DNA of 35,485 nucleotides from assembly GCA_028277465.1 (NCBI GenBank), contig JANQGF010000243.1, positions 1 to 35,485 on the forward strand. The letters are read 5' to 3'. This document shows positions 23-35,362 of the stretch, one piece after another. Both the position numbers and the translations under genes were made by a program. Position 1 is the stretch's first letter, and each line of letters opens with the position of its first letter. Under the pieces are notes generated by a model. It had not been told where the DNA came from and did not search any database. It was given only the letters and a program-made list of their open reading frames with translations. The DNA comes from Chromatiaceae bacterium. GTDB taxonomy: Bacteria > Pseudomonadota > Gammaproteobacteria > Chromatiales > Chromatiaceae.

Positions 23-58
23 CTTAGTAATGATTCAGAAACAACCTACACACCGTAG
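23..58. repeat. 36-bp sequence cttagtaatgattcagaaacaacctacacaccgtag, copy 1 of a perfect direct repeat (second copy at 35327-35362)
   Basis: Exact 36/36 match by eye between 23-58 and 35327-35362. Flanking sequence on both sides differs between the copies. Confidence 0.9.
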
Positions 59-1321: not shown

Positions 1322-1398
1322 GACAACGTAGCTCATTTGGGTAGAGCAGCTGGTTGATAACCAGTGGGTAGCGGGTTCGAATCCCGCCGCTGTCTCCA
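1322..1398 (+). tRNA. tRNA-Ile (anticodon GAU), 77 nt with encoded CCA
   Basis: Manual cloverleaf fold. Acceptor gacaacg/cgctgtc has one A-C mismatch. D arm is gctc-atttgggta-gagc. Anticodon arm is gctgg-ttGATaa-ccagt, with U33 and A37. T arm is gcggg-ttcgaat-cccgc. Discriminator t, then cca. Confidence 0.75.
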
Positions 1399-1713
1399 TT
1401 GGCGACCAAGGGTTGCCCTTGGATTGGGCTTGAACCCCAATCCTCAACCAAGAGGCGAGCCCCAGCCACCGGACAGGGGGACCTCCGCCCCAGGGCGGGC
1501 CGGCAGGGAGGCCGAGATGGCAGCGTCGCCGTGATCTTGCGCGGCGGGCAAAGGTCGGGCCAGCTCCGCAGGGTATCAGGCTCCGGATGCAGGAGTGCAT
1601 CAGAGTGGATCGGGAGGATCCCGGACCGAGCCGGCGGAGTCCGCCCGGCAGACGCCCGTCGCCCATCGCGGCGGCGCGGGGCGAGCCCTTCTTTCAGCAC
1701 CATGACAGAGAGG

Positions 1714-1876
1714 TAAGGCGATTGCCGGAGACTCTCATACCAGATGGCGCCGGATTGACGGCTGCCTTCAAGGAGCGCCGGCAGGATCATAGCCGGGTTA
1801 TGTGACTGCTGGCGCGACACAGAAGGCAGGCGTCAAGACCAGCCAGGTGGTATGAGAGTCGACAGAAATCGCCTAA
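1714..1876 (-). repeat. Copy 1 (minus orientation) of a 163-bp structured repeat element with a long terminal inverted stem and internal hairpins. Candidate ncRNA or MITE.
   Basis: About 90% identical to 28081-28243 when reverse-complemented. Terminal pairing ggcgatt...gactctcatacca with tggtatgagagtc...aatcgcc. Internal hairpin ctgcc-ggcgctccttgaa-ggcag. Confidence 0.8.
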
Positions 1877-1959
1877 CTCTCGATGTCGACCGACCGTCCG
1901 AGGCGTGAGCCACTCGGGCTCGGGCGCCTCGGTACCCGCGAGGACACAGGAGAAGCAGC

Positions 1960-3177
1960 ATGAACATCATGGGATACAAGCGACAGGTCGTGGCCCAGCA
2001 CCAGCGTGCACTGGTGCTGAAGAACGGTGTGCTGGTCGAGATTCTGGGCCCGGGTGTCTACCACTGGCTGGATCTCACGGGCGCCGTCGAGATTCAGGTC
2101 TCGGATCTGACCAATCCGGAGCTGGTCCATCCGCACGCTGAGGTCTTGCGGAAGGAGTCCAGCCGGCTCTGGGACGCCTGGATCCAGACCATCGAGACCG
2201 GCGAGCGCGAGGCCGGGCTGGTTCGCTTCGATGGTCGTCTCGCTCACCTGCTGCCGCCCCTGAGCCGCCGCTTCTATTGGAAGGGACCCGTGCAGGTCGA
2301 TCTTGAGCGGATCGATCTGAGCCAGGACCCCGCGATCGAGCCGGCACTGCTGGAGGCCTTGCGCCAGACGCGTCATGCGCGGCCCTTCACCCAGGTCTCG
2401 GCTGGTTCACGGGAGAAGGCACGGGCCCTGGGCAGGGAGCTGGCGGGTATCGACTTCCTCGACAATGTCCTGGAGGAAGAGGTGGCGGATCACCAGCTGG
2501 GACTGCTGGTCATGGATGGTCGGTTGGTCCGGACCCTGGAGCCCGGCGTGCACGCCTTCTGGAACTTCGCCCGCAATCTGCAGGTGGAAGTGACGGACCT
2601 GCGACTGCAGGAGCTGGAGGTCCAGGGCCAGGAGATCCTGACCAGGGACAAGGTCAGCCTGCGGATCAATCTGACCGCCCACTATCGGGTGGTCGACCCG
2701 GTCAAGGTCCGGGCGATGTTGCCCCGTCCCAAGGACTACCTCTATCGCGAGCTACAGTTCAGTCTGCGCCAAGGAGTCGGCGACCGCACCCTGGACGAGC
2801 TGTTGAACGAGAAGGGGACACTGGAGCAGGGCATGCAGGAGCGCGTGCGAGCACGGGCCGAGGCCTATGGGATCCTGGTCGAGGAGCTGGGGATCAAGGA
2901 TGTCATCCTTCCGGGCGACATGAAGCAGATCCTCAATCAGGTGGTCGAGGCGGAGAAGGCGGCGCAAGCCAACCTGATCCGTCGCCGCGAGGAAACGGCG
3001 GCCACCCGGTCGTTGCTCAACACGGCCAAGCTGATGGAACAGAACCCGATCCTGCTGCGGTTGAAGGAGCTGGAGACCCTGGAGGGCGTCACGGATCGGG
3101 TTGGTAGCCTGACCCTCTTCGGCGGCATGGAGTCCCTGCTCCAAGGATTGGTGAGGATCGAGGCGCCGAAGGGTTGA
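1960..3177 (+). CDS. SPFH/band-7 (stomatin/prohibitin-like, slipin-type) domain protein, 405 aa
   Basis: The C-terminal half ...TRDKVSLRINLTAHYRVVDPVKV...IKDVILPGDMKQILNQVVEAEKAAQANLIRRREETAATRS... is SPFH-like. The N-terminal half has two related beta-rich repeats. RBS aggag 6 nt upstream. Confidence 0.7.
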   Translation: MNIMGYKRQVVAQHQRALVLKNGVLVEILGPGVYHWLDLTGAVEIQVSDLTNPELVHPHAEVLRKESSRLWDAWIQTIETGEREAGLVRFDGRLAHLLPPLSRRFYWKGPVQVDLERIDLSQDPAIEPALLEALRQTRHARPFTQVSAGSREKARALGRELAGIDFLDNVLEEEVADHQLGLLVMDGRLVRTLEPGVHAFWNFARNLQVEVTDLRLQELEVQGQEILTRDKVSLRINLTAHYRVVDPVKVRAMLPRPKDYLYRELQFSLRQGVGDRTLDELLNEKGTLEQGMQERVRARAEAYGILVEELGIKDVILPGDMKQILNQVVEAEKAAQANLIRRREETAATRSLLNTAKLMEQNPILLRLKELETLEGVTDRVGSLTLFGGMESLLQGLVRIEAPKG

Positions 3178-3187
3178 ACCAGAAACG

Positions 3188-3201
3188 GCGGTCGACCGCC
3201 G
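3188..3201. other. Perfect 14-bp palindrome ggcggtcgaccgcc in the SPFH-rtcB intergenic region
   Basis: Read directly from the sequence. No following T-run, so more likely a protein-binding site or RNA hairpin than a terminator. Confidence 0.5.
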
Positions 3202-3289
3202 GTGACTCGAGCGCGAGACCGATCGCACCCGAAGCGCCGGTGGTCGCCGAACCGGACCGAACGAGCATTTCAGCCGCCAGGAACCAACG

Positions 3290-4480
3290 ATGCCCATCAA
3301 ACGCGTCATCAGCGAAGGCCGTGTCCCGGTCATGATCTACACCGAAGACGTGGCCGAGAACGCCGTCCAGCAGCTCGAGAACGTCTCCCGGCTGCCCTTC
3401 ATCCATCACCATGTCGCCGCGATGCCCGATGTCCATTGGGGCATGGGGGCGACCATCGGCTCGGTGATCCCGACGCTCGGGGCCATCATCCCGGCCGCGG
3501 TCGGCGTCGACATCGGATGTGGCATGAAGGCGTTGCGGCTCTCCCTGCGCGCGGAGCAGCTTCCCGATTCGCTCGGCCAGCTGCGTTCAGCCATCGAGCA
3601 TGCGGTCCCGGTCGGGATGGCAGGCCACCCGGAGGATGCCTGGTGCGAGGAGGGGCTGAAGCGGGTGGCGCCCGGCCTGCAGCCGATCCTGGACAAACAC
3701 CCCAAGATCAGTGCCCGCTGGCAGAGCCAGCTCGGCAGCCTGGGCGGCGGCAACCACTTCATCGAGCTCTGTCTCGATCAGTCCCAGCAGGTCTGGATCA
3801 TGCTGCACTCCGGGTCGCGCGGGATCGGCAACCGTATCGGCATACACTTCATCGACTTGGCCAGGCGTGAGATGGAGCAGTGGCATATCCAGCTGCCGGA
3901 TCGGAATCTGGCCTACTTGCCGGAGGGCAGCCGCTATTTCGACGACTATGTCGAGGCGGTCGGTTGGGCGCAGGACTACGCGATGGAGAACCGGCGCCAG
4001 ATGATGCGGCTCATCCTGGATGTGCTGCAGGATGAGGTGCAGCGCGGCCAGCTACCGCCCTTCGCGGCAACCGACGAGGCGATCAACTGTCACCACAATT
4101 ATGTGGTACGCGAGCATCACTTCGGCAAGGAGGTCTATCTCACCCGCAAGGGTGCGATCCGGGCGCGCGAGGGCGACCTGGGGATCATCCCGGGCAGCAT
4201 GGGGGCACGCTCCTACATCGTGCGCGGTCTGGGCGACCCCATGTCCTTCTGCTCTTGCTCGCACGGGGCCGGACGGCGCATGAGCCGCGGCGAGGCGACG
4301 CGTCGTTTCACTCGCAGGGACCTGGAGGACCAGACCCAGGGCGTCGAGTGCCGCAAGGACAAGGGGGTGATCGACGAGATCCCGGCGGCCTACAAGGACA
4401 TCGACGCGGTGATGGCGAGCCAGAACGACCTGGTCGAGGTCGTGCATACTTTGAAGCAGGTGTTGACGGTCAAGGGTTGA
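3290..4480 (+). CDS. rtcB: RNA-splicing ligase RtcB (3'-phosphate/5'-hydroxyl RNA ligase), 396 aa
   Basis: Hallmark motifs PDVHWGMGATIGSV, GGGNHFIE and CSCSHGAGR. Length matches the RtcB family. Confidence 0.9.
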   Translation: MPIKRVISEGRVPVMIYTEDVAENAVQQLENVSRLPFIHHHVAAMPDVHWGMGATIGSVIPTLGAIIPAAVGVDIGCGMKALRLSLRAEQLPDSLGQLRSAIEHAVPVGMAGHPEDAWCEEGLKRVAPGLQPILDKHPKISARWQSQLGSLGGGNHFIELCLDQSQQVWIMLHSGSRGIGNRIGIHFIDLARREMEQWHIQLPDRNLAYLPEGSRYFDDYVEAVGWAQDYAMENRRQMMRLILDVLQDEVQRGQLPPFAATDEAINCHHNYVVREHHFGKEVYLTRKGAIRAREGDLGIIPGSMGARSYIVRGLGDPMSFCSCSHGAGRRMSRGEATRRFTRRDLEDQTQGVECRKDKGVIDEIPAAYKDIDAVMASQNDLVEVVHTLKQVLTVKG

Positions 4481-5658: not shown

Positions 5659-7689
5659 ATGGACATGCCCAACGTGGACGCACCAGGGCCTGGGCAGCCC
5701 GAGGCGTTCGGCTCCAGGGGCCGAGTGGCCACTCCCAAGGTATCGCCTTGGACCCGCCGCCCAACCCCGGGCTTGACCGGGCGCTCCCGATACCGCGCTG
5801 GGGTGGCCGGCACGGTGGCGGTCTGGGGTGAGAAGGGGCTCGGCATCCGGCGCCTGCTCTTCCTTGGGACCGCCCTGCTCATGACGCTGGGGACGGGAAT
5901 GGGGCTCTACTCGGGTCACCTGACCAGCGAGTTGCATCGGAGCATGACCGAGCATGAGCGCGAGACCGATGCCTCGGTCGCAGCGGCTCGTGCGGCCTTC
6001 GCGGGTGCCAACCGGCTCAGCCTGGCGTTACGGGACCTCGCCCGCGCCGAGAACCCGCGGGGACTGGGTCTGCGAGCTAACGCGGTGAGTCGGGCCCTGG
6101 TCGCGAGTCAAGACCAACTGGACAGGATGCGCGTTCAGCTGCACCGTGGCGGCTGGCTGCCCGAGGCGACGGCGATCGTCGCCGTCACGCGTACGGAGAC
6201 CGAAGTCCAGACCAGTCTTGCACAGCTGGTGGAGGCCGTCGGCACCCAGATCGAGGCCGATGCCGCCGTGGCGGATCGCCATCGGCGCCTCAAAAGGGCA
6301 TTCAATCGCTACTTCCGGGCCAGCAGCAAGGTCGAGGTCTCGATGCGCACTCGGGCCTCTCGAGTACTCGCGATCGACCTGGTCGAGGCCGCCCAACAGG
6401 GGCGGTTGCAACGGCGTCTGGACCGCTTCTTCGAGCGCGAGATGTCCTGGGTGGCCACCAGCCGGGATCTGGTGAAGGACGGCCTCGAGCTGTTTCGACG
6501 AGCCACAGAGCTGCTCGCGAGCAGCGATCGAGCGGCACTTCGCGAGGGCCAGGAGGGGGTGCGGATCTACGCGAAGCGCTTGCAGGTCTACCGCCGTCTG
6601 CCCGACTCGGAGACACGCCGCATGCTGGCGACGGCGACCTCCGACTATGTCGCGTTGGCGTCTGGGGAGCCAACGCTGGAGGTGATCCGCGGTCGCGTAC
6701 TGACCGGTGGGGCGGCCCGCGCAGCGGCACTGGATCGCGCGCTGGCCGATTGCGACAGACTGAAGGGCCACATCTACGACCTGACCCAACGGCTGACGCA
6801 CCAGGCGCGCCAGGAGTCCGCAAGGCGCCAGAGCAGCCTGGAACGTCGACGCGCGCTGCTGCAGGCCGTCACCATTGCAGCCGGTATCCTGGTGCTCGCG
6901 CTGGTCTATCTCTTCCTCGCAAAGCGTGCGATTCGGCCCTTGGAACGCCTGACGGCGAGGATGCGACGCATCTCCGACGAGCTCGACCGCGGCGGCGACG
7001 GCAGCCTCGCGGACCAGGCACTGCCCACCGACGAACCGGCACTCGACGAGGTCAGGGCCATGACTCGGGCGTTGCGGTTACTGCAGCGTACCTTGGCCGA
7101 TCGCGAGCAGGCCCTGCAGCGCAAGCAGCTGGAGCTGCAGCGCTTGGCACATCACGACTTCCTGACCGGTCTGCCGAACCGGGCACTTCTGGCCGAACGC
7201 ATCGAGCAGGCCGTCCACCGTGCCGATCGCAATGGCCAATTCGTCGCCGTCGCGCTGCTCGATCTAGACGGCTTCAAGGCCGTCAATGATGAGTTCGGCC
7301 ATGACCTTGGCGACCAAATGCTCAAACGGGTCGCCGATCTGCTCACGGCCTCCGTGCGTCTGGTGGACACGGTGGCGCGCTGCGGCGGTGACGAGTTCGT
7401 CTTTCTATTGCCGGACCTGGAACAGCCGGAAGACGCCGAGCCAGTCCTGAGAAGGACCCTGAACCGGATCGGTGAGCCGTCGCGCCTGGACGGAGGGATC
7501 CGCGTCCAAGTGAAAGCAAGCATCGGCTACACCCTCTACCCCCTGGATGACAATACGGGCGATACCCTGATTCGGCATGCCGATCAAGCCATGTACGACG
7601 CCAAGCGGAGCGGTGGCAACCAGCTTTGGGTCTATGGAGACGACGGCAGCACTCGCCCGGTCGGCCCCGCTCCGATGGGTGCGCCGTGA
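5659..7689 (+). CDS. Membrane-anchored sensor diguanylate cyclase (periplasmic/coiled sensor region, HAMP-like linker, GGDEF domain)
   Basis: TM segment IRRLLFLGTALLMTLGTGMGLY. The C-terminal GGDEF domain has an intact RCGGDEF motif and DGFKAVND. The start at 5659 is uncertain. Confidence 0.75.
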   Translation: MDMPNVDAPGPGQPEAFGSRGRVATPKVSPWTRRPTPGLTGRSRYRAGVAGTVAVWGEKGLGIRRLLFLGTALLMTLGTGMGLYSGHLTSELHRSMTEHERETDASVAAARAAFAGANRLSLALRDLARAENPRGLGLRANAVSRALVASQDQLDRMRVQLHRGGWLPEATAIVAVTRTETEVQTSLAQLVEAVGTQIEADAAVADRHRRLKRAFNRYFRASSKVEVSMRTRASRVLAIDLVEAAQQGRLQRRLDRFFEREMSWVATSRDLVKDGLELFRRATELLASSDRAALREGQEGVRIYAKRLQVYRRLPDSETRRMLATATSDYVALASGEPTLEVIRGRVLTGGAARAAALDRALADCDRLKGHIYDLTQRLTHQARQESARRQSSLERRRALLQAVTIAAGILVLALVYLFLAKRAIRPLERLTARMRRISDELDRGGDGSLADQALPTDEPALDEVRAMTRALRLLQRTLADREQALQRKQLELQRLAHHDFLTGLPNRALLAERIEQAVHRADRNGQFVAVALLDLDGFKAVNDEFGHDLGDQMLKRVADLLTASVRLVDTVARCGGDEFVFLLPDLEQPEDAEPVLRRTLNRIGEPSRLDGGIRVQVKASIGYTLYPLDDNTGDTLIRHADQAMYDAKRSGGNQLWVYGDDGSTRPVGPAPMGAP

Positions 7690-27656: not shown

Positions 27657-28049
27657 TTACTCGGCCTTCATCTCATAGGTGATGGCCGAGAGCGTGGCGC
27701 CCTGAGGATCCTGAAAGACGCAGAAACGGCCGACGGTGGGAATATCCTGGGGCGGCAACAGCACCTTTCCCCCCAATTCGACGACCTTGGCGGCCATGGC
27801 GTCGACGTCCTCGACCGTGACATAGGCGCCCCATTGGGGTGGCGCACCGGCGGCCTGGGGTGGGATGGGCATCATGCCGGCGACCTGCTTGCCGGCGACC
27901 TCGATCACCGAGTAAATGGTGTCGCCCATGTTGCTGTCCTTGATGTCCCAACCGAAAAGCTGGTGGTAGAAGGACTTGGCGGCATCCATGTCGGTCGTCA
28001 TCAGCTCGTTCCAGCTGAAGGCGCCCGGGGTCGAAAAGACATCGCTCAC
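27657..28049 (-). CDS. VOC/glyoxalase-bleomycin-resistance superfamily protein (130 aa)
   Basis: Typical VOC beta-alpha-beta-beta-beta modules: FSWNELMTTDMDAAKSFYHQLFGW, and CVFQDPQG near the C-terminus. Confidence 0.7.
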   Translation of the reverse strand: MSDVFSTPGAFSWNELMTTDMDAAKSFYHQLFGWDIKDSNMGDTIYSVIEVAGKQVAGMMPIPPQAAGAPPQWGAYVTVEDVDAMAAKVVELGGKVLLPPQDIPTVGRFCVFQDPQGATLSAITYEMKAE

Positions 28050-28080: not shown

Positions 28081-28243
28081 TTAGGCGATTTCTGTCAATT
28101 CTCATCCCACCTGGCTTGTCTTGACGCCCGCCTTCTGCGTCGCGCCAGCAGTCACATCGCGCGGCGATGCTCCTGCCGGCGCTCCTTGAAGGCAGACGCC
28201 AATCCGGCGCCATCTGGCATGAGAATTTCCGGCAATCGCCTTA
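28081..28243 (+). repeat. Copy 2 (plus orientation) of the 163-bp structured repeat element
   Basis: About 90% identical to the reverse complement of 1714-1876. Terminal stem ggcgatttctgtcaattctcat... pairs with ...atgagaatttccggcaatcgcc. Same internal hairpin ctgcc-ggcgctccttgaa-ggcag. Confidence 0.8.
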
Positions 28244-28303: not shown

Positions 28304-29644
28304 TCAGAAATTCCAGCGCAGTCCGGCGGTTAGCACATTGCTGCGACGCCTGCCGTCCTCCTCCAGACTGGAATCCAGCTTCAGGTTCAAGTAGAGGTAG
28401 CGCTCGAAGTCCTTGAGGGCGTATCGGACTCCGACCACGCCGTACTTGAGGCGATAGTCGCCCGCCAGCGGTTGCCCGGGGGCGGGCTCGAGCCAGTTCC
28501 AGCCGAAGGTGCCCCACCATTTGCCACGCAGCCGACGCTGTCCGTAGAGCTCCCACCCGAATCCGTCGAAGTAGTGGCCTTGGTCGGTGGTTTCATGATT
28601 GCGAAGCCGGGCGACGACGGTCCCGAGATACCAGTCATCGCTGAACCAGCGGGCCCCGAGCGCCAATGCCTCGGCGTTGCCGTGGATGCCCAGGCCGCGC
28701 AGCCTCGGGCTCAGATGGTTCGGAATCTGAGCGTGGTTGTAAGCGATCCCGAAGGAGAAGTTGGTGCTCGTCGCCAGGAGGGCGCTGAGACCGATCGCCC
28801 GGCCATAGTGGGCACCCTGGACGTCTGGTATGGGCTCCCCGCTCTGTAGCTGGACATTTAGGCTGAAGGGCTCGAAGCCCAGCAACTTGGGCAGGACATC
28901 CAAATGGACCCGGGTCTGGATGGCTTGCTCCGCCCGGCCGGTGCCTGTGTAGCCGCCGTCCGTCCCGGCGTTGTAGGTGCCGACGGCCTGCCCGCCGGTG
29001 CCGGCGAAACGGTCGGTGAAGCTGGTAACCTTGTAGTAGACGGACCAAGTCTTGCCGATCACCAGGAAGAGGTTGGGCGACTCGAAGCTGAGATAGTGCA
29101 GACGCGGGAAGAAGCTGTCGCCGCGCCCCCCCGATGGGGAGTTTCCGTTGGCCAGGGCCGCAATCTCGTCGAGCAGCTTGAAGCCGGCCTCGCCGCGGAT
29201 CGACAACCACTTCTGCGGCATCACTTGATAGCGGCCCTGGACGCCGATCCTGGAACTGCCGTCCTCGATACTCTGTCGCTCGGAGGTCGCGCGGAAACGC
29301 ACCCTTAGACTGCCGTAGACGGAAAAGAGGTTCGGCTGCTCCGAGGGGGTGTCCTTGGGCGTGGTCGCGGCCTCGCGCTGGATGGTCCGCTGCTGCTGCG
29401 TCAAGGGGTCTTCCTCGGCCTCCTCCTCGCGCGCTCGGGCCTGCGTCTCGCCCGTATCGGTGACTCGTTCCCGCGCCTTGGGCGGCGCCTCCGCGCCGAG
29501 GGCAGACGTGGCGCGCCCCGTGAGCCCGAGGCAGAGCAATGCGACGCCGATCCAAACGACTCCAGGGGACAGGGGTCCCGCCTTCGAGCCCCCCCTCAGG
29601 CTGCGACCAACGAACCCGGGAGCGAGCGGACGAGGCTCAGTCAC
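28304..29644 (-). CDS. Outer-membrane beta-barrel porin (446 aa), C-terminal ...GLRWNF
   Basis: Signal-like segment VVWIGVALLCLGLTGRATSALGA. Alternating beta-strand pattern and an aromatic C-terminal residue. GTG start overlaps the glutaminase stop by 8 bp. Exact start uncertain. Confidence 0.65.
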   Translation of the reverse strand: MTEPRPLAPGFVGRSLRGGSKAGPLSPGVVWIGVALLCLGLTGRATSALGAEAPPKARERVTDTGETQARAREEEAEEDPLTQQQRTIQREAATTPKDTPSEQPNLFSVYGSLRVRFRATSERQSIEDGSSRIGVQGRYQVMPQKWLSIRGEAGFKLLDEIAALANGNSPSGGRGDSFFPRLHYLSFESPNLFLVIGKTWSVYYKVTSFTDRFAGTGGQAVGTYNAGTDGGYTGTGRAEQAIQTRVHLDVLPKLLGFEPFSLNVQLQSGEPIPDVQGAHYGRAIGLSALLATSTNFSFGIAYNHAQIPNHLSPRLRGLGIHGNAEALALGARWFSDDWYLGTVVARLRNHETTDQGHYFDGFGWELYGQRRLRGKWWGTFGWNWLEPAPGQPLAGDYRLKYGVVGVRYALKDFERYLYLNLKLDSSLEEDGRRRSNVLTAGLRWNF

Positions 29645-35326: not shown

Positions 35327-35362
35327 CTTAGTAATGATTCAGAAACAACCTACACACCGTAG
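35327..35362. repeat. Copy 2 of the 36-bp perfect direct repeat (see 23-58), embedded in a hairpin-rich non-coding region 35190-35485
   Basis: Exact match to 23-58. Adjacent hairpins ttgggg-tgaggaacgaa-ccccaa, gttgggc-ttcgctctcgctcg-gcccac, ttgggca-aagcgaagcg-tgcccaa and gctag-tcg-gctagc. Partial internal duplication caacctaca(a/c)accg at 35250 and 35347. Confidence 0.85.

What the first reader, a model, noticed from the sequence alone, without database searches (positions are those of the whole stretch)
1714..1876. A 163-bp structured element present twice (1714-1876 and 28081-28243) with compensatory stem substitutions
- The two copies are in opposite orientations, the same length (163 bp) and about 90% identical.
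- Each folds with a long closing stem formed by its termini (ggcgatt.../...aatcgcc, plus a 9-13 bp inner stem) that encloses conserved internal hairpins such as ctgcc-ggcgctccttgaa-ggcag.
- Within the inner stem, two base pairs differ between copies in a compensatory way. Copy 1 has gactctcat/atgagagtc and copy 2 has aattctcat/atgagaatt, so G-C becomes A-T and C-G becomes T-A at paired positions.
- This compensation indicates selection on pairing rather than on sequence.
- That points to a small structured RNA family or a MITE-like mobile hairpin.
- Copy 1 lies in the leader region between the tRNA and the SPFH-rtcB operon, antisense to that operon.
- Copy 2 lies between the porin stop codon and the VOC gene start.
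Basis: seen in the sequence. Interest (0 to 1): 0.85.

Follow-up and report, generated by a model that had tools for sequence, protein, structure and literature searches.

The report
Small hairpin transposon (MITE), two copies
The twice-occurring 163-bp hairpin is a copy of a previously undescribed miniature non-coding transposon that is scattered through purple sulfur bacteria, an ordinary kind of selfish DNA rather than a dedicated RNA gene.

Summary
Two inverted copies (1714-1876 and 28081-28243) are 147/163 identical, and two stem pairs differ in a compensatory way. The 163 bp is a 157-bp element (GGCGATTGCCGG...GACAGAAATCGCC) plus a TAA on each side. I recovered 157 copies at 134 distinct insertion sites, in Thiorhodococcus, Thiohalocapsa, other Chromatiaceae genomes and sediment metagenomes. 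In 98 of 134 sites the flanking triplets are identical (TAA/TAA or TTA/TTA; Fisher p=7e-21), within a Y-TWA-R target. Paralogous empty sites carry a single TWA. Five orthologous tRNA-SPFH intergenic regions lack copy 1, and nested insertions occur. This is a MITE with a 3-bp TWA target duplication. I infer mobilisation by an IS5/Harbinger-type transposase, but no autonomous partner was found. Covariation is strong (33 of 47 pairs; 94% of cells paired). It is concentrated on internal branches of the copy tree, copy orientation relative to genes is unbiased, and no promoter or terminator signals were found. The hairpin therefore appears to serve the element's propagation, not a host RNA function. 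Verdict: a new member of a known kind, of low to moderate interest.

The parts
1714..1716 (+). Left target-site duplication (TAA) of copy 1
   Evidence: The same triplet recurs at 1874-1876. Across the family, flanking triplets are identical at 98 of 134 sites.
1717..1873 (+). MITE copy 1, 157 bp, forward orientation on the + strand
   Evidence: Alignments. nhmmer E=5e-58. Hairpin of -102 kcal/mol. Absent from five orthologous loci.
1717..1729 (+). Left terminal inverted repeat of copy 1 (GGCGATTGCCGGA)
   Evidence: Nearly invariant in copies that were found through an internal 18-mer, so the search did not force it. The first 7 nt pair with the last 7 nt in 129 of 129 distinct copies.
1861..1873 (+). 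Right terminal inverted repeat of copy 1 (GACAGAAATCGCC)
1874..1876 (+). Right target-site duplication (TAA) of copy 1
   Evidence: sequence
28081..28083 (-). Target-site duplication of copy 2 (TAA on the - strand; this is the element's right side)
28084..28240 (-). MITE copy 2, 157 bp, forward orientation on the - strand, between the porin stop and the VOC start
28084..28096 (-). Right terminal inverted repeat of copy 2
28228..28240 (-). Left terminal inverted repeat of copy 2
28241..28243 (-). Target-site duplication of copy 2 (TAA on the - strand; this is the element's left side)

Best explanation
The element is a non-autonomous DNA transposon (MITE) of 157 bp. Its terminal inverted repeats are GGCGATT(G/T)C..., and its two halves are complementary, so either strand can form one roughly 75-bp imperfect hairpin.

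Shown:
- It inserts at TWA trinucleotides, within a preferred Y-TWA-R context, and duplicates the TWA.
- It sits at many unrelated, mostly intergenic sites in Chromatiaceae genomes.
- Sites with and without the element exist.
- The two window copies are two independent insertions of one subfamily.

Inferred:
- It is moved in trans by a DDE transposase of the IS5 / PIF-Harbinger type. That type makes 3-bp TNA/TWA duplications and has GG... termini.
- The hairpin is maintained because lineages that keep both arms matched remain mobilisable. Once inserted, individual copies decay.
- Effects on the neighbouring SPFH-rtcB and porin/VOC transcripts are possible if the hairpin is transcribed, but they would be incidental.
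For: Family size and spread:
- nhmmer finds 157 copies, 148 of them full length, in 1.28 Mb of fetched loci. They come from Thiorhodococcus minor, Thiohalocapsa, Chromatiaceae MAGs and metagenomes.
- There are 134 unique insertion sites and 133 distinct element sequences.

Target-site duplication:
- Flanking triplets are identical at 98 of 134 sites. The middle base is A/A at 56, T/T at 49 and discordant A/T at 10 (Fisher p=6.6e-21).
- The base before the triplet is C/T at 107 of 134 sites, and the base after it is G/A at 118 of 134.

Empty sites and mobility:
- Paralogous empty sites carry a single TWA: L140 vs L109, L109 vs L130, L118 vs L123, L128 vs L077.
- Orthologous HTH-tRNA-SPFH loci in five relatives lack copy 1, and the alignment resumes across the junction.
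- L120 contains a nested insertion and a 529-bp long variant.
- Flanking DNA holds about one extra copy per 38 kb.

Hairpin:
- 47 consensus pairs, 33 with compensatory changes. 94.1% of cells are paired against 83.7% in shuffles (0 of 500 reach it) and 31-52% when partners are slid.
- Structure-preserving changes make up 72% on internal branches against 47% on terminal branches (p=1.2e-7).

Against a gene-like role:
- Relative to co-directional neighbours, 15 copies are sense and 24 antisense. 23 lie between convergent genes and 11 between divergent genes.
- No promoter- or terminator-like sites were found.
- There is no Rfam hit.

Literature:
- Small size, TIRs, direct repeats, stable predicted hairpins and empty/filled sites are the accepted MITE signature (PMC3184786).
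- A 3-nt target is described as typical of the IS1031 group of the IS5 family (PMC2516522).
Against: - No autonomous IS with these termini was found in the fetched loci. The transposase family is therefore inferred only from the duplication length, the target and the GG termini.
- The forward strand folds better in 126 of 134 copies.
- G.U wobble cells outnumber A.C cells 453 to 104, and G.U exceeds A.C at 29 pairs against 6. A purely double-stranded cut-and-paste model does not predict this.
- A weaker bias in the same direction occurs in unpaired columns (129 vs 105), so part of the asymmetry may be mutational.
- My gene calls for the orientation test are crude, being based on GC3.
Confidence: 0.85

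Rival explanations
1. A family of functional structured small RNAs, or cis-acting mRNA elements such as stabilisers or RNase III sites, whose hairpin is selected at the RNA level. On this view the spread by transposition is secondary.
For: - Covariation is strong.
- The forward strand is more stable in 126 of 134 copies.
- G.U cells exceed A.C cells, and the G.U excess is also seen as events on terminal branches (121 vs 76).
- Both window copies are sense to their neighbouring genes.
- Other bacterial MITEs are reported to be co-transcribed and to influence expression (PMC3184786).
Against: - Orientation relative to co-directional genes is unbiased or slightly antisense (15 vs 24).
- No promoter- or terminator-like signals were found.
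- There is no Rfam family match even at E<=10.
- 53% of changes at stem pairs on terminal branches break the pairing, against 28% on internal branches.
- Copies insert into other repeats and into each other.
- The transition bias is of similar direction in unpaired columns.
Confidence: 0.07
2. A MITE mobilised by a transposase other than the IS5 type, for example an IS630/Tc1-mariner (Stowaway-like, TA duplication), IS3 or IS30 family enzyme.
For: - No partner IS was identified.
- From my own knowledge, IS3 and IS30 family members can also make 2-3 bp duplications.
Against: - The duplication is 3 bp, not 2. The middle base co-varies between the two sides (p=7e-21), and empty sites carry one TWA.
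- The termini are GG...CC, not the TG...CA of IS3.
- From my own knowledge, the palindromic Y-TWA-R target resembles IS5 (YTAR) and Harbinger (TWA).
Confidence: 0.15
3. A REP/REPIN-type palindrome spread by a RAYT (IS200/IS605-like tyrosine/HUH) transposase through single-stranded DNA hairpins.
For: - The whole element is a hairpin.
- The strand-specific G.T tolerance would fit a single-stranded DNA intermediate.
Against: - From my own knowledge, and in general terms from PMC3184786, REP units are short (20-40 nt) and REPINs are not flanked by target duplications. This element is 157 bp.
- Here a precise 3-bp duplication and terminal inverted repeats are present.
Confidence: 0.02

Closest known systems
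Tourist-type MITEs and their IS5 / PIF-Harbinger transposases (bacterial IS5 family, subgroups with a 3-nt target such as IS1031)
   Same: - The duplication is 3 bp, TAA or TTA, at a short palindromic target.
- The terminal inverted repeats are short and start with GG.
- The element is small, non-coding and multi-copy.
- Basis: PMC2516522 for the 3-nt target; my own knowledge for Tourist/Harbinger.
   Different: - No autonomous partner has been identified.
- The arms are complementary along the entire length, not only at the termini.
- The host is Chromatiaceae, where the held literature describes no MITE.
Classical bacterial hairpin MITEs: Correia/NEMIS (Neisseria), ERIC (enterobacteria), RUP (pneumococcus), Nezha (cyanobacteria), Chunjie (Geobacter)
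   Same: - The size is 100-250 bp, with TIRs, direct repeats and intergenic location.
- Predicted hairpins are very stable.
- Empty and filled sites are used to show mobility (PMC3184786).
- Compensatory changes that preserve structure were reported for bcr1 (PMC3184786).
   Different: - There is no sequence relationship: no match in plasmids or Rfam.
- From my own knowledge, Correia uses a TA duplication, whereas this element uses TWA.
- No promoter, IHF site or RNase III site has been demonstrated here.
REP/REPIN elements with RAYT transposases
   Same: Both are abundant intergenic palindromes that can fold as DNA or RNA.
   Different: This element has TIRs, is 157 bp long and is flanked by a 3-bp target duplication.

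Membership tests
Bacterial MITE | Small (about 100-600 bp) and non-coding | tested here: met
   The core is 156-158 bp in 126 of 136 copies. It is too short to encode a transposase.
Bacterial MITE | Terminal inverted repeats | tested here: met
   GGCGATT pairs with AATCGCC in all 129 distinct copies except one (the second pair is G-G in one copy). The repeat extends imperfectly to about 13 nt. It is also conserved in copies that were found through an internal motif.
Bacterial MITE | Target-site duplication flanking each copy | tested here: met
   Triplets are identical at 98 of 134 sites, and the middle base is concordant with p=6.6e-21.
Bacterial MITE | Many dispersed copies at unrelated loci | tested here: met
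   134 unique flanks in several genera and in metagenomes, with about one extra copy per 38 kb.
Bacterial MITE | Insertion polymorphism (empty versus filled sites) | tested here: met
   Paralogous empty sites carry a single TWA. Five orthologous loci lack copy 1.
Bacterial MITE | An autonomous IS with matching termini | tested here: inconclusive
   None was found in 1.28 Mb of fetched loci.
IS5 / PIF-Harbinger-mobilised (Tourist-like) MITE | 3-bp TNA/TWA duplication at a short palindromic target | tested here: met
   TAA or TTA at 105 of 134 sites, within a Y-TWA-R context.
IS5 / PIF-Harbinger-mobilised (Tourist-like) MITE | Cognate DDE (DDE_Tnp_1-type) transposase recognising the termini | not testable with these tools
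   No partner was retrieved. This needs complete host genomes or ISfinder.
Stowaway-like / IS630-Tc1-mariner MITE | TA dinucleotide duplication | tested here: not met
   The duplication is 3 bp with a co-varying middle base.
Any curated RNA family (Rfam 15) | Covariance-model match at or near the gathering score | tested here: not met
   Only the tRNA passes. The best hits on the element score 13-17 bits with E>1.
Independent small-RNA gene | Own promoter and terminator, with consistent orientation to its context | tested here: not met
   No sigma-70-like or intrinsic-terminator-like sites were found. Orientation is unbiased. Expression itself is not testable here.
REP/REPIN | Short REP units, no target duplication, associated RAYT gene | tested here: not met
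   The element is a 157-bp unit with TIRs and a 3-bp duplication. RAYT linkage was not examined.
Intrinsic terminator | GC-rich hairpin followed by a U-tract | tested here: not met
   No T-run follows either copy.

The most novel reading that the evidence does not exclude
The hairpin may be selected in a strand-specific, single-stranded form.
- The forward strand tolerates G.U(T) wobbles far more than A.C (453 vs 104 cells; 163 vs 93 inferred events).
- The forward strand folds about 12 kcal/mol better on average.

If this is not mutational bias, one of two things follows. Either the element propagates through, or is recognised as, a top-strand DNA hairpin, which would be unusual for a DDE-type MITE. 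Or its transcript has a conserved RNA-level role, such as a processing or stability element, across Chromatiaceae.
Probability: 0.12. Interest if true: 0.5.

Novelty: new member of a known kind. Interest (0 to 1): 0.25.

Why it matters
- **Annotation:** the family should be masked or labelled as a MITE in Chromatiaceae genomes, not reported as a novel structured RNA.
- **Assembly:** a Logan contig ends inside copy 1 (locus L185), as expected if the repeat breaks short-read assemblies.
- **A caution for RNA discovery:** strong, statistically clean covariation can arise in a mobile palindrome. Covariation alone does not establish an RNA gene.
- **An evolutionary pattern:** stem-preserving changes are 72% on internal branches against 47% on terminal branches. 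This is a neat example of selection acting on the transposing lineage rather than on inserted copies.
- **Markers and local effects:** the copies are useful strain-level insertion markers. They could incidentally alter expression of the SPFH-rtcB and porin/VOC transcripts.

Tried and rejected
- **Rfam:** the gathering search of the window found only the tRNA. Permissive searches over the element found only chance-level hits.
- **Plasmids:** blastn of copy 1 against PLSDB gave no match.
- **Viral contigs:** the scan with the left terminus returned 8 hits. All are an unrelated AT-rich phage promoter/RBS region, and nhmmer finds no element in them.
- **Autonomous partner:** I looked for isolated termini and for paired inverted termini 400-2500 bp apart across all loci. 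Only pairs of separate MITEs and truncated copies turned up. ORFs next to the isolated termini in L070 and L152 did not look like transposases by eye; they were not scanned against Pfam.
- **Source look-up:** an exact-sequence look-up of the window's RtcB found nothing on record. P0009 was also not on record.
ctgcc/ggcag was rejected because it is not conserved.
- **Promoter or terminator roles:** no consensus sites were found.
- **A 2-bp TA duplication model:** rejected because the middle base is concordant between the two sides and empty sites carry one TWA.
- **Mutation versus selection for the G.U excess:** the split into paired and unpaired columns was inconclusive.
- **Ascertainment caveat:** the invariance of TTCAAGGAGCGCCGGCAG in L001-L064, and of the termini in L065-L184, is partly forced by the search patterns. 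Each set was used to check the other.

Full report
**1. The observation**

Window 1714-1876 (+) and 28081-28243 (reverse complement) align without gaps and are 147/163 identical. Each folds far better than shuffled controls, at -102.2 and -104.9 kcal/mol with z about -11.7. Pfam confirms the neighbouring genes:
- Band_7/SPFH at 1960-3177.
- RtcB at 3290-4480.
- A glyoxalase/VOC protein at 27657-28049 (-).
- A porin at 28304-29644 (-).

The tRNA lies at 1322-1398.

The anatomy, however, is a single long imperfect hairpin formed by the two halves of the element. It is not a closing stem around internal hairpins. The proposed ctgcc/ggcag hairpin is not kept in relatives: two of its five pairs are paired in only 26% of copies.

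**2. Relatives**

It nevertheless recovered true copies in the following:
- Thiorhodococcus minor (three loci).
- Thiohalocapsa.
- Chromatiaceae MAGs.
- Several uncultured gammaproteobacterial MAGs.

A metagenome scan that specified only the two termini returned 120 more loci. nhmmer over all 1.28 Mb found 157 copies, 148 of them full length. The closest named homologues of the window's SPFH protein are from Thiorhodococcus and Thiocystis, at 72-76% identity. The window is an entire 35,485-bp contig.

**3. Termini and target duplication**

The conserved unit runs from GGCGATTGCCGG to GACAGAAATCGCC and is 156-158 bp in most copies. The three bases outside it on each side behave as a direct repeat, not as part of the inverted repeat:
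- Among 134 unique insertion sites, the two triplets are identical in 98.
- The middle base is A/A in 56, T/T in 49, and discordant A/T in only 10 (Fisher p=6.6e-21).
- The base before the triplet is a pyrimidine in 107 of 134, and the base after it is a purine in 118 of 134. The target is therefore Y-TWA-R.

The outer T and A were fixed by my metagenome pattern, but the middle base was free. Copies found through the internal motif show the same flanks.

**4. Mobility**

Several copies sit inside another repeated sequence. Paralogous copies of that repeat are uninterrupted at exactly that point and carry one TWA. For example, L109 has GCGTTAAGTGTAGG where L140 has ...TTTAA[element]TAAGTGTAGG. 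The pairs L109/L130, L118/L123 and L128/L077 behave likewise.

The orthologous HTH / tRNA / SPFH regions of five relatives contain no copy:
- GCA_029257105.1
- T. minor
- T. drewsii
- T. fuscus
- Thiorhodovibrio winogradskyi

With the element and one TAA removed, the window aligns across the junction with L186. L120 shows one copy inserted into another, and a 529-bp longer variant with the same termini. Flanking DNA holds about one further copy per 38 kb, which by extrapolation suggests on the order of 100 copies per genome. Together these are the defining features of a MITE (review: PMC3184786).

**5. The hairpin and the covariation**

On 130 copies, RNAalifold predicts 47 pairs, and 33 of them show changes on both sides that keep the pair. 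94.1% of cells are standard pairs, against 83.7% in column shuffles (0 of 500 reach the observed value) and 31-52% when partners are slid by 1-3 columns.

I then asked where that selection acts. Parsimony on a neighbour-joining tree of the copies gave these counts of changes at stem pairs:

| Branch type | Paired to paired (both sides changed) | To G.U | To A.C | To other mismatch | Structure-preserving share |
|---|---|---|---|---|---|
| Internal | 74 | 42 | 17 | 29 | 72% |
| Terminal | 40 | 121 | 76 | 109 | 47% |

The difference is significant (Fisher p=1.2e-7). Lineages that went on to leave several copies kept the stem, while individual inserted copies tend to erode. That pattern is expected if the hairpin matters for being mobilised, or if the arms are homogenised in active copies. 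It is not expected if each copy serves its host as an RNA.

**6. Tests of an RNA-gene reading**

- No Rfam family matches, even permissively.
- No sigma-70-like promoter or intrinsic-terminator-like site lies in or next to either copy, and no U-tract follows the hairpin.
- With a crude GC3-based gene caller, copies between co-directional genes are sense in 15 cases and antisense in 24.
- Copies are commoner between convergent genes (23) than divergent genes (11), as expected if promoter regions are avoided.

One observation is left over:
- The forward strand folds better in 126 of 134 copies, with a mean of -78 against -66 kcal/mol.
- G.U cells outnumber A.C cells 453 to 104, and G.U exceeds A.C at 29 pairs against 6.
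- A weaker bias in the same direction exists in unpaired columns (C>T+A>G 129 vs G>A+T>C 105; in paired columns 238 vs 199).

I therefore cannot separate mutation bias from strand-specific selection, and I carry this forward as the novel case.

**7. Mechanism and classification**

Shown: a 157-bp non-coding element with TIRs inserts at TWA and duplicates it.

Inferred: it is mobilised in trans by an IS5 / PIF-Harbinger-type DDE transposase. The grounds are:
- The 3-bp TWA duplication.
- The short palindromic target.
- The GG termini.
- A published statement that a 3-nt target is typical of the IS1031 group of IS5 (PMC2516522).
- My own knowledge that Tourist/Harbinger elements duplicate TWA.

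No autonomous partner was found in the fetched DNA, so that membership row stays open. A TA-duplicating (IS630-type) origin and a REP/RAYT origin both fail tested features.

**8. Novelty and verdict**

Nothing in the held literature describes a MITE in Chromatiaceae. There is also no plasmid, phage or Rfam match. This is a new family of a well-known kind of element. It is solidly characterised but unsurprising, with interest at about 0.25. For the window, copy 1 is a lineage-specific insertion 84 nt upstream of the SPFH start. It lies just downstream of a conserved structured non-coding region. Copy 2 occupies most of the 254-nt porin-VOC spacer. Any regulatory effect of either copy is speculative.

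**9. Seen in passing, and possibly more interesting than the finding**

The 'tRNA' upstream of SPFH-RtcB keeps its body but changes its anticodon among orthologous loci: GAT, CAT, TTG, GAT, GAT, GCT. It is followed by about 300 nt of conserved non-coding sequence, with 26 compensatory pairs in five sequences. Rfam gives only a sub-threshold YrlA hit, at 16 bits against a gathering score of 69. Details are in the list of passing observations.

Noticed in passing
window 1322-1695 (+); orthologues L186:2514-2885, L187:2406-2775, L197:1904-2272, L198:1900-2268, L199:1945-2020: The tRNA gene just upstream of the SPFH-RtcB operon keeps a near-identical body but carries different anticodons in orthologous, syntenic loci. 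They are Ile-GAT (window, T. drewsii, T. fuscus), Met-CAT (GCA_029257105.1), Gln-TTG (T. minor) and Ser-GCT (Thiorhodovibrio; its body was not aligned with the others, and no RtcB gene is called in that locus). It is followed by about 300 nt of conserved non-coding sequence that folds into a large structure with 26 compensatory pairs in 5 sequences. No Rfam family matches; YrlA scores only 16 bits against a gathering score of 69. This could be a tRNA-like or Y-RNA-like module tied to the RtcB RNA ligase, and it deserves its own follow-up.
   Followed up: partly
window 23-58 and 35327-35362: A perfect 36-bp direct repeat (CTTAGTAATGATTCAGAAACAACCTACACACCGTAG) sits near both ends of the contig, with unrelated flanks. 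The first copy looks like part of a hairpin unit of roughly 65 bp (GATTCAGAAAC...GTTTCTGAATC) bounded by CTTAG on both sides, which may be a second small mobile repeat. The window is a whole contig, so repeats at both ends probably mark assembly breakpoints. No copy was found in the other fetched loci.
   Followed up: partly
L130:6436-6712, L109:224-437 and 1763-1955, L151:170-407, L070:4706-4918, L077:835-1212, L128:435-630 and 6708-6946: The metagenomic host genomes carry at least two other dispersed repeat families. One has arms AACGCAACCTACACCC ... GTGTAGGTTGGGTTAGGCG. The MITE has repeatedly inserted into these repeats, and they supplied the paralogous empty sites. Their nature is unknown.
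   Followed up: no
L120:2968-3298 and L120:3938-4466: One MITE copy (3108-3269) is inserted inside a divergent copy. Separately, a 529-bp variant has the same termini but a longer repeat-rich interior. It starts immediately at the stop codon of a peptidyl-tRNA hydrolase-like ORF (identified by eye, not scanned), with the TAG overlapping the insertion site. It could be an intermediate deletion derivative of the unknown parent IS.
   Followed up: partly
L185 (Logan SRR20820739 contig, equal to window 1828-3742): An independent short-read assembly of the same organism ends inside MITE copy 1, as expected if this repeat family fragments assemblies.
   Followed up: no
window 1767-1775 and 28182-28190; alignment A3 columns 57-67: An unpaired internal-loop motif, TTC-AAGG(A/C)G, is among the most conserved interior positions of the element across subfamilies. 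That includes copies found only through their termini. It may be a protein-binding site (transposase or a host factor), and it resembles a Shine-Dalgarno sequence on the forward strand.
   Followed up: no
L052 (contig labelled Candidatus Binatia) and L009 (contig labelled Candidatus Phaeomarinobacter): Two very short contigs (1.4 and 2.3 kb) in MAGs of unrelated phyla carry copies 92-96% identical to window copy 2. These are probably mis-binned Chromatiaceae fragments rather than cross-phylum spread.
   Followed up: no
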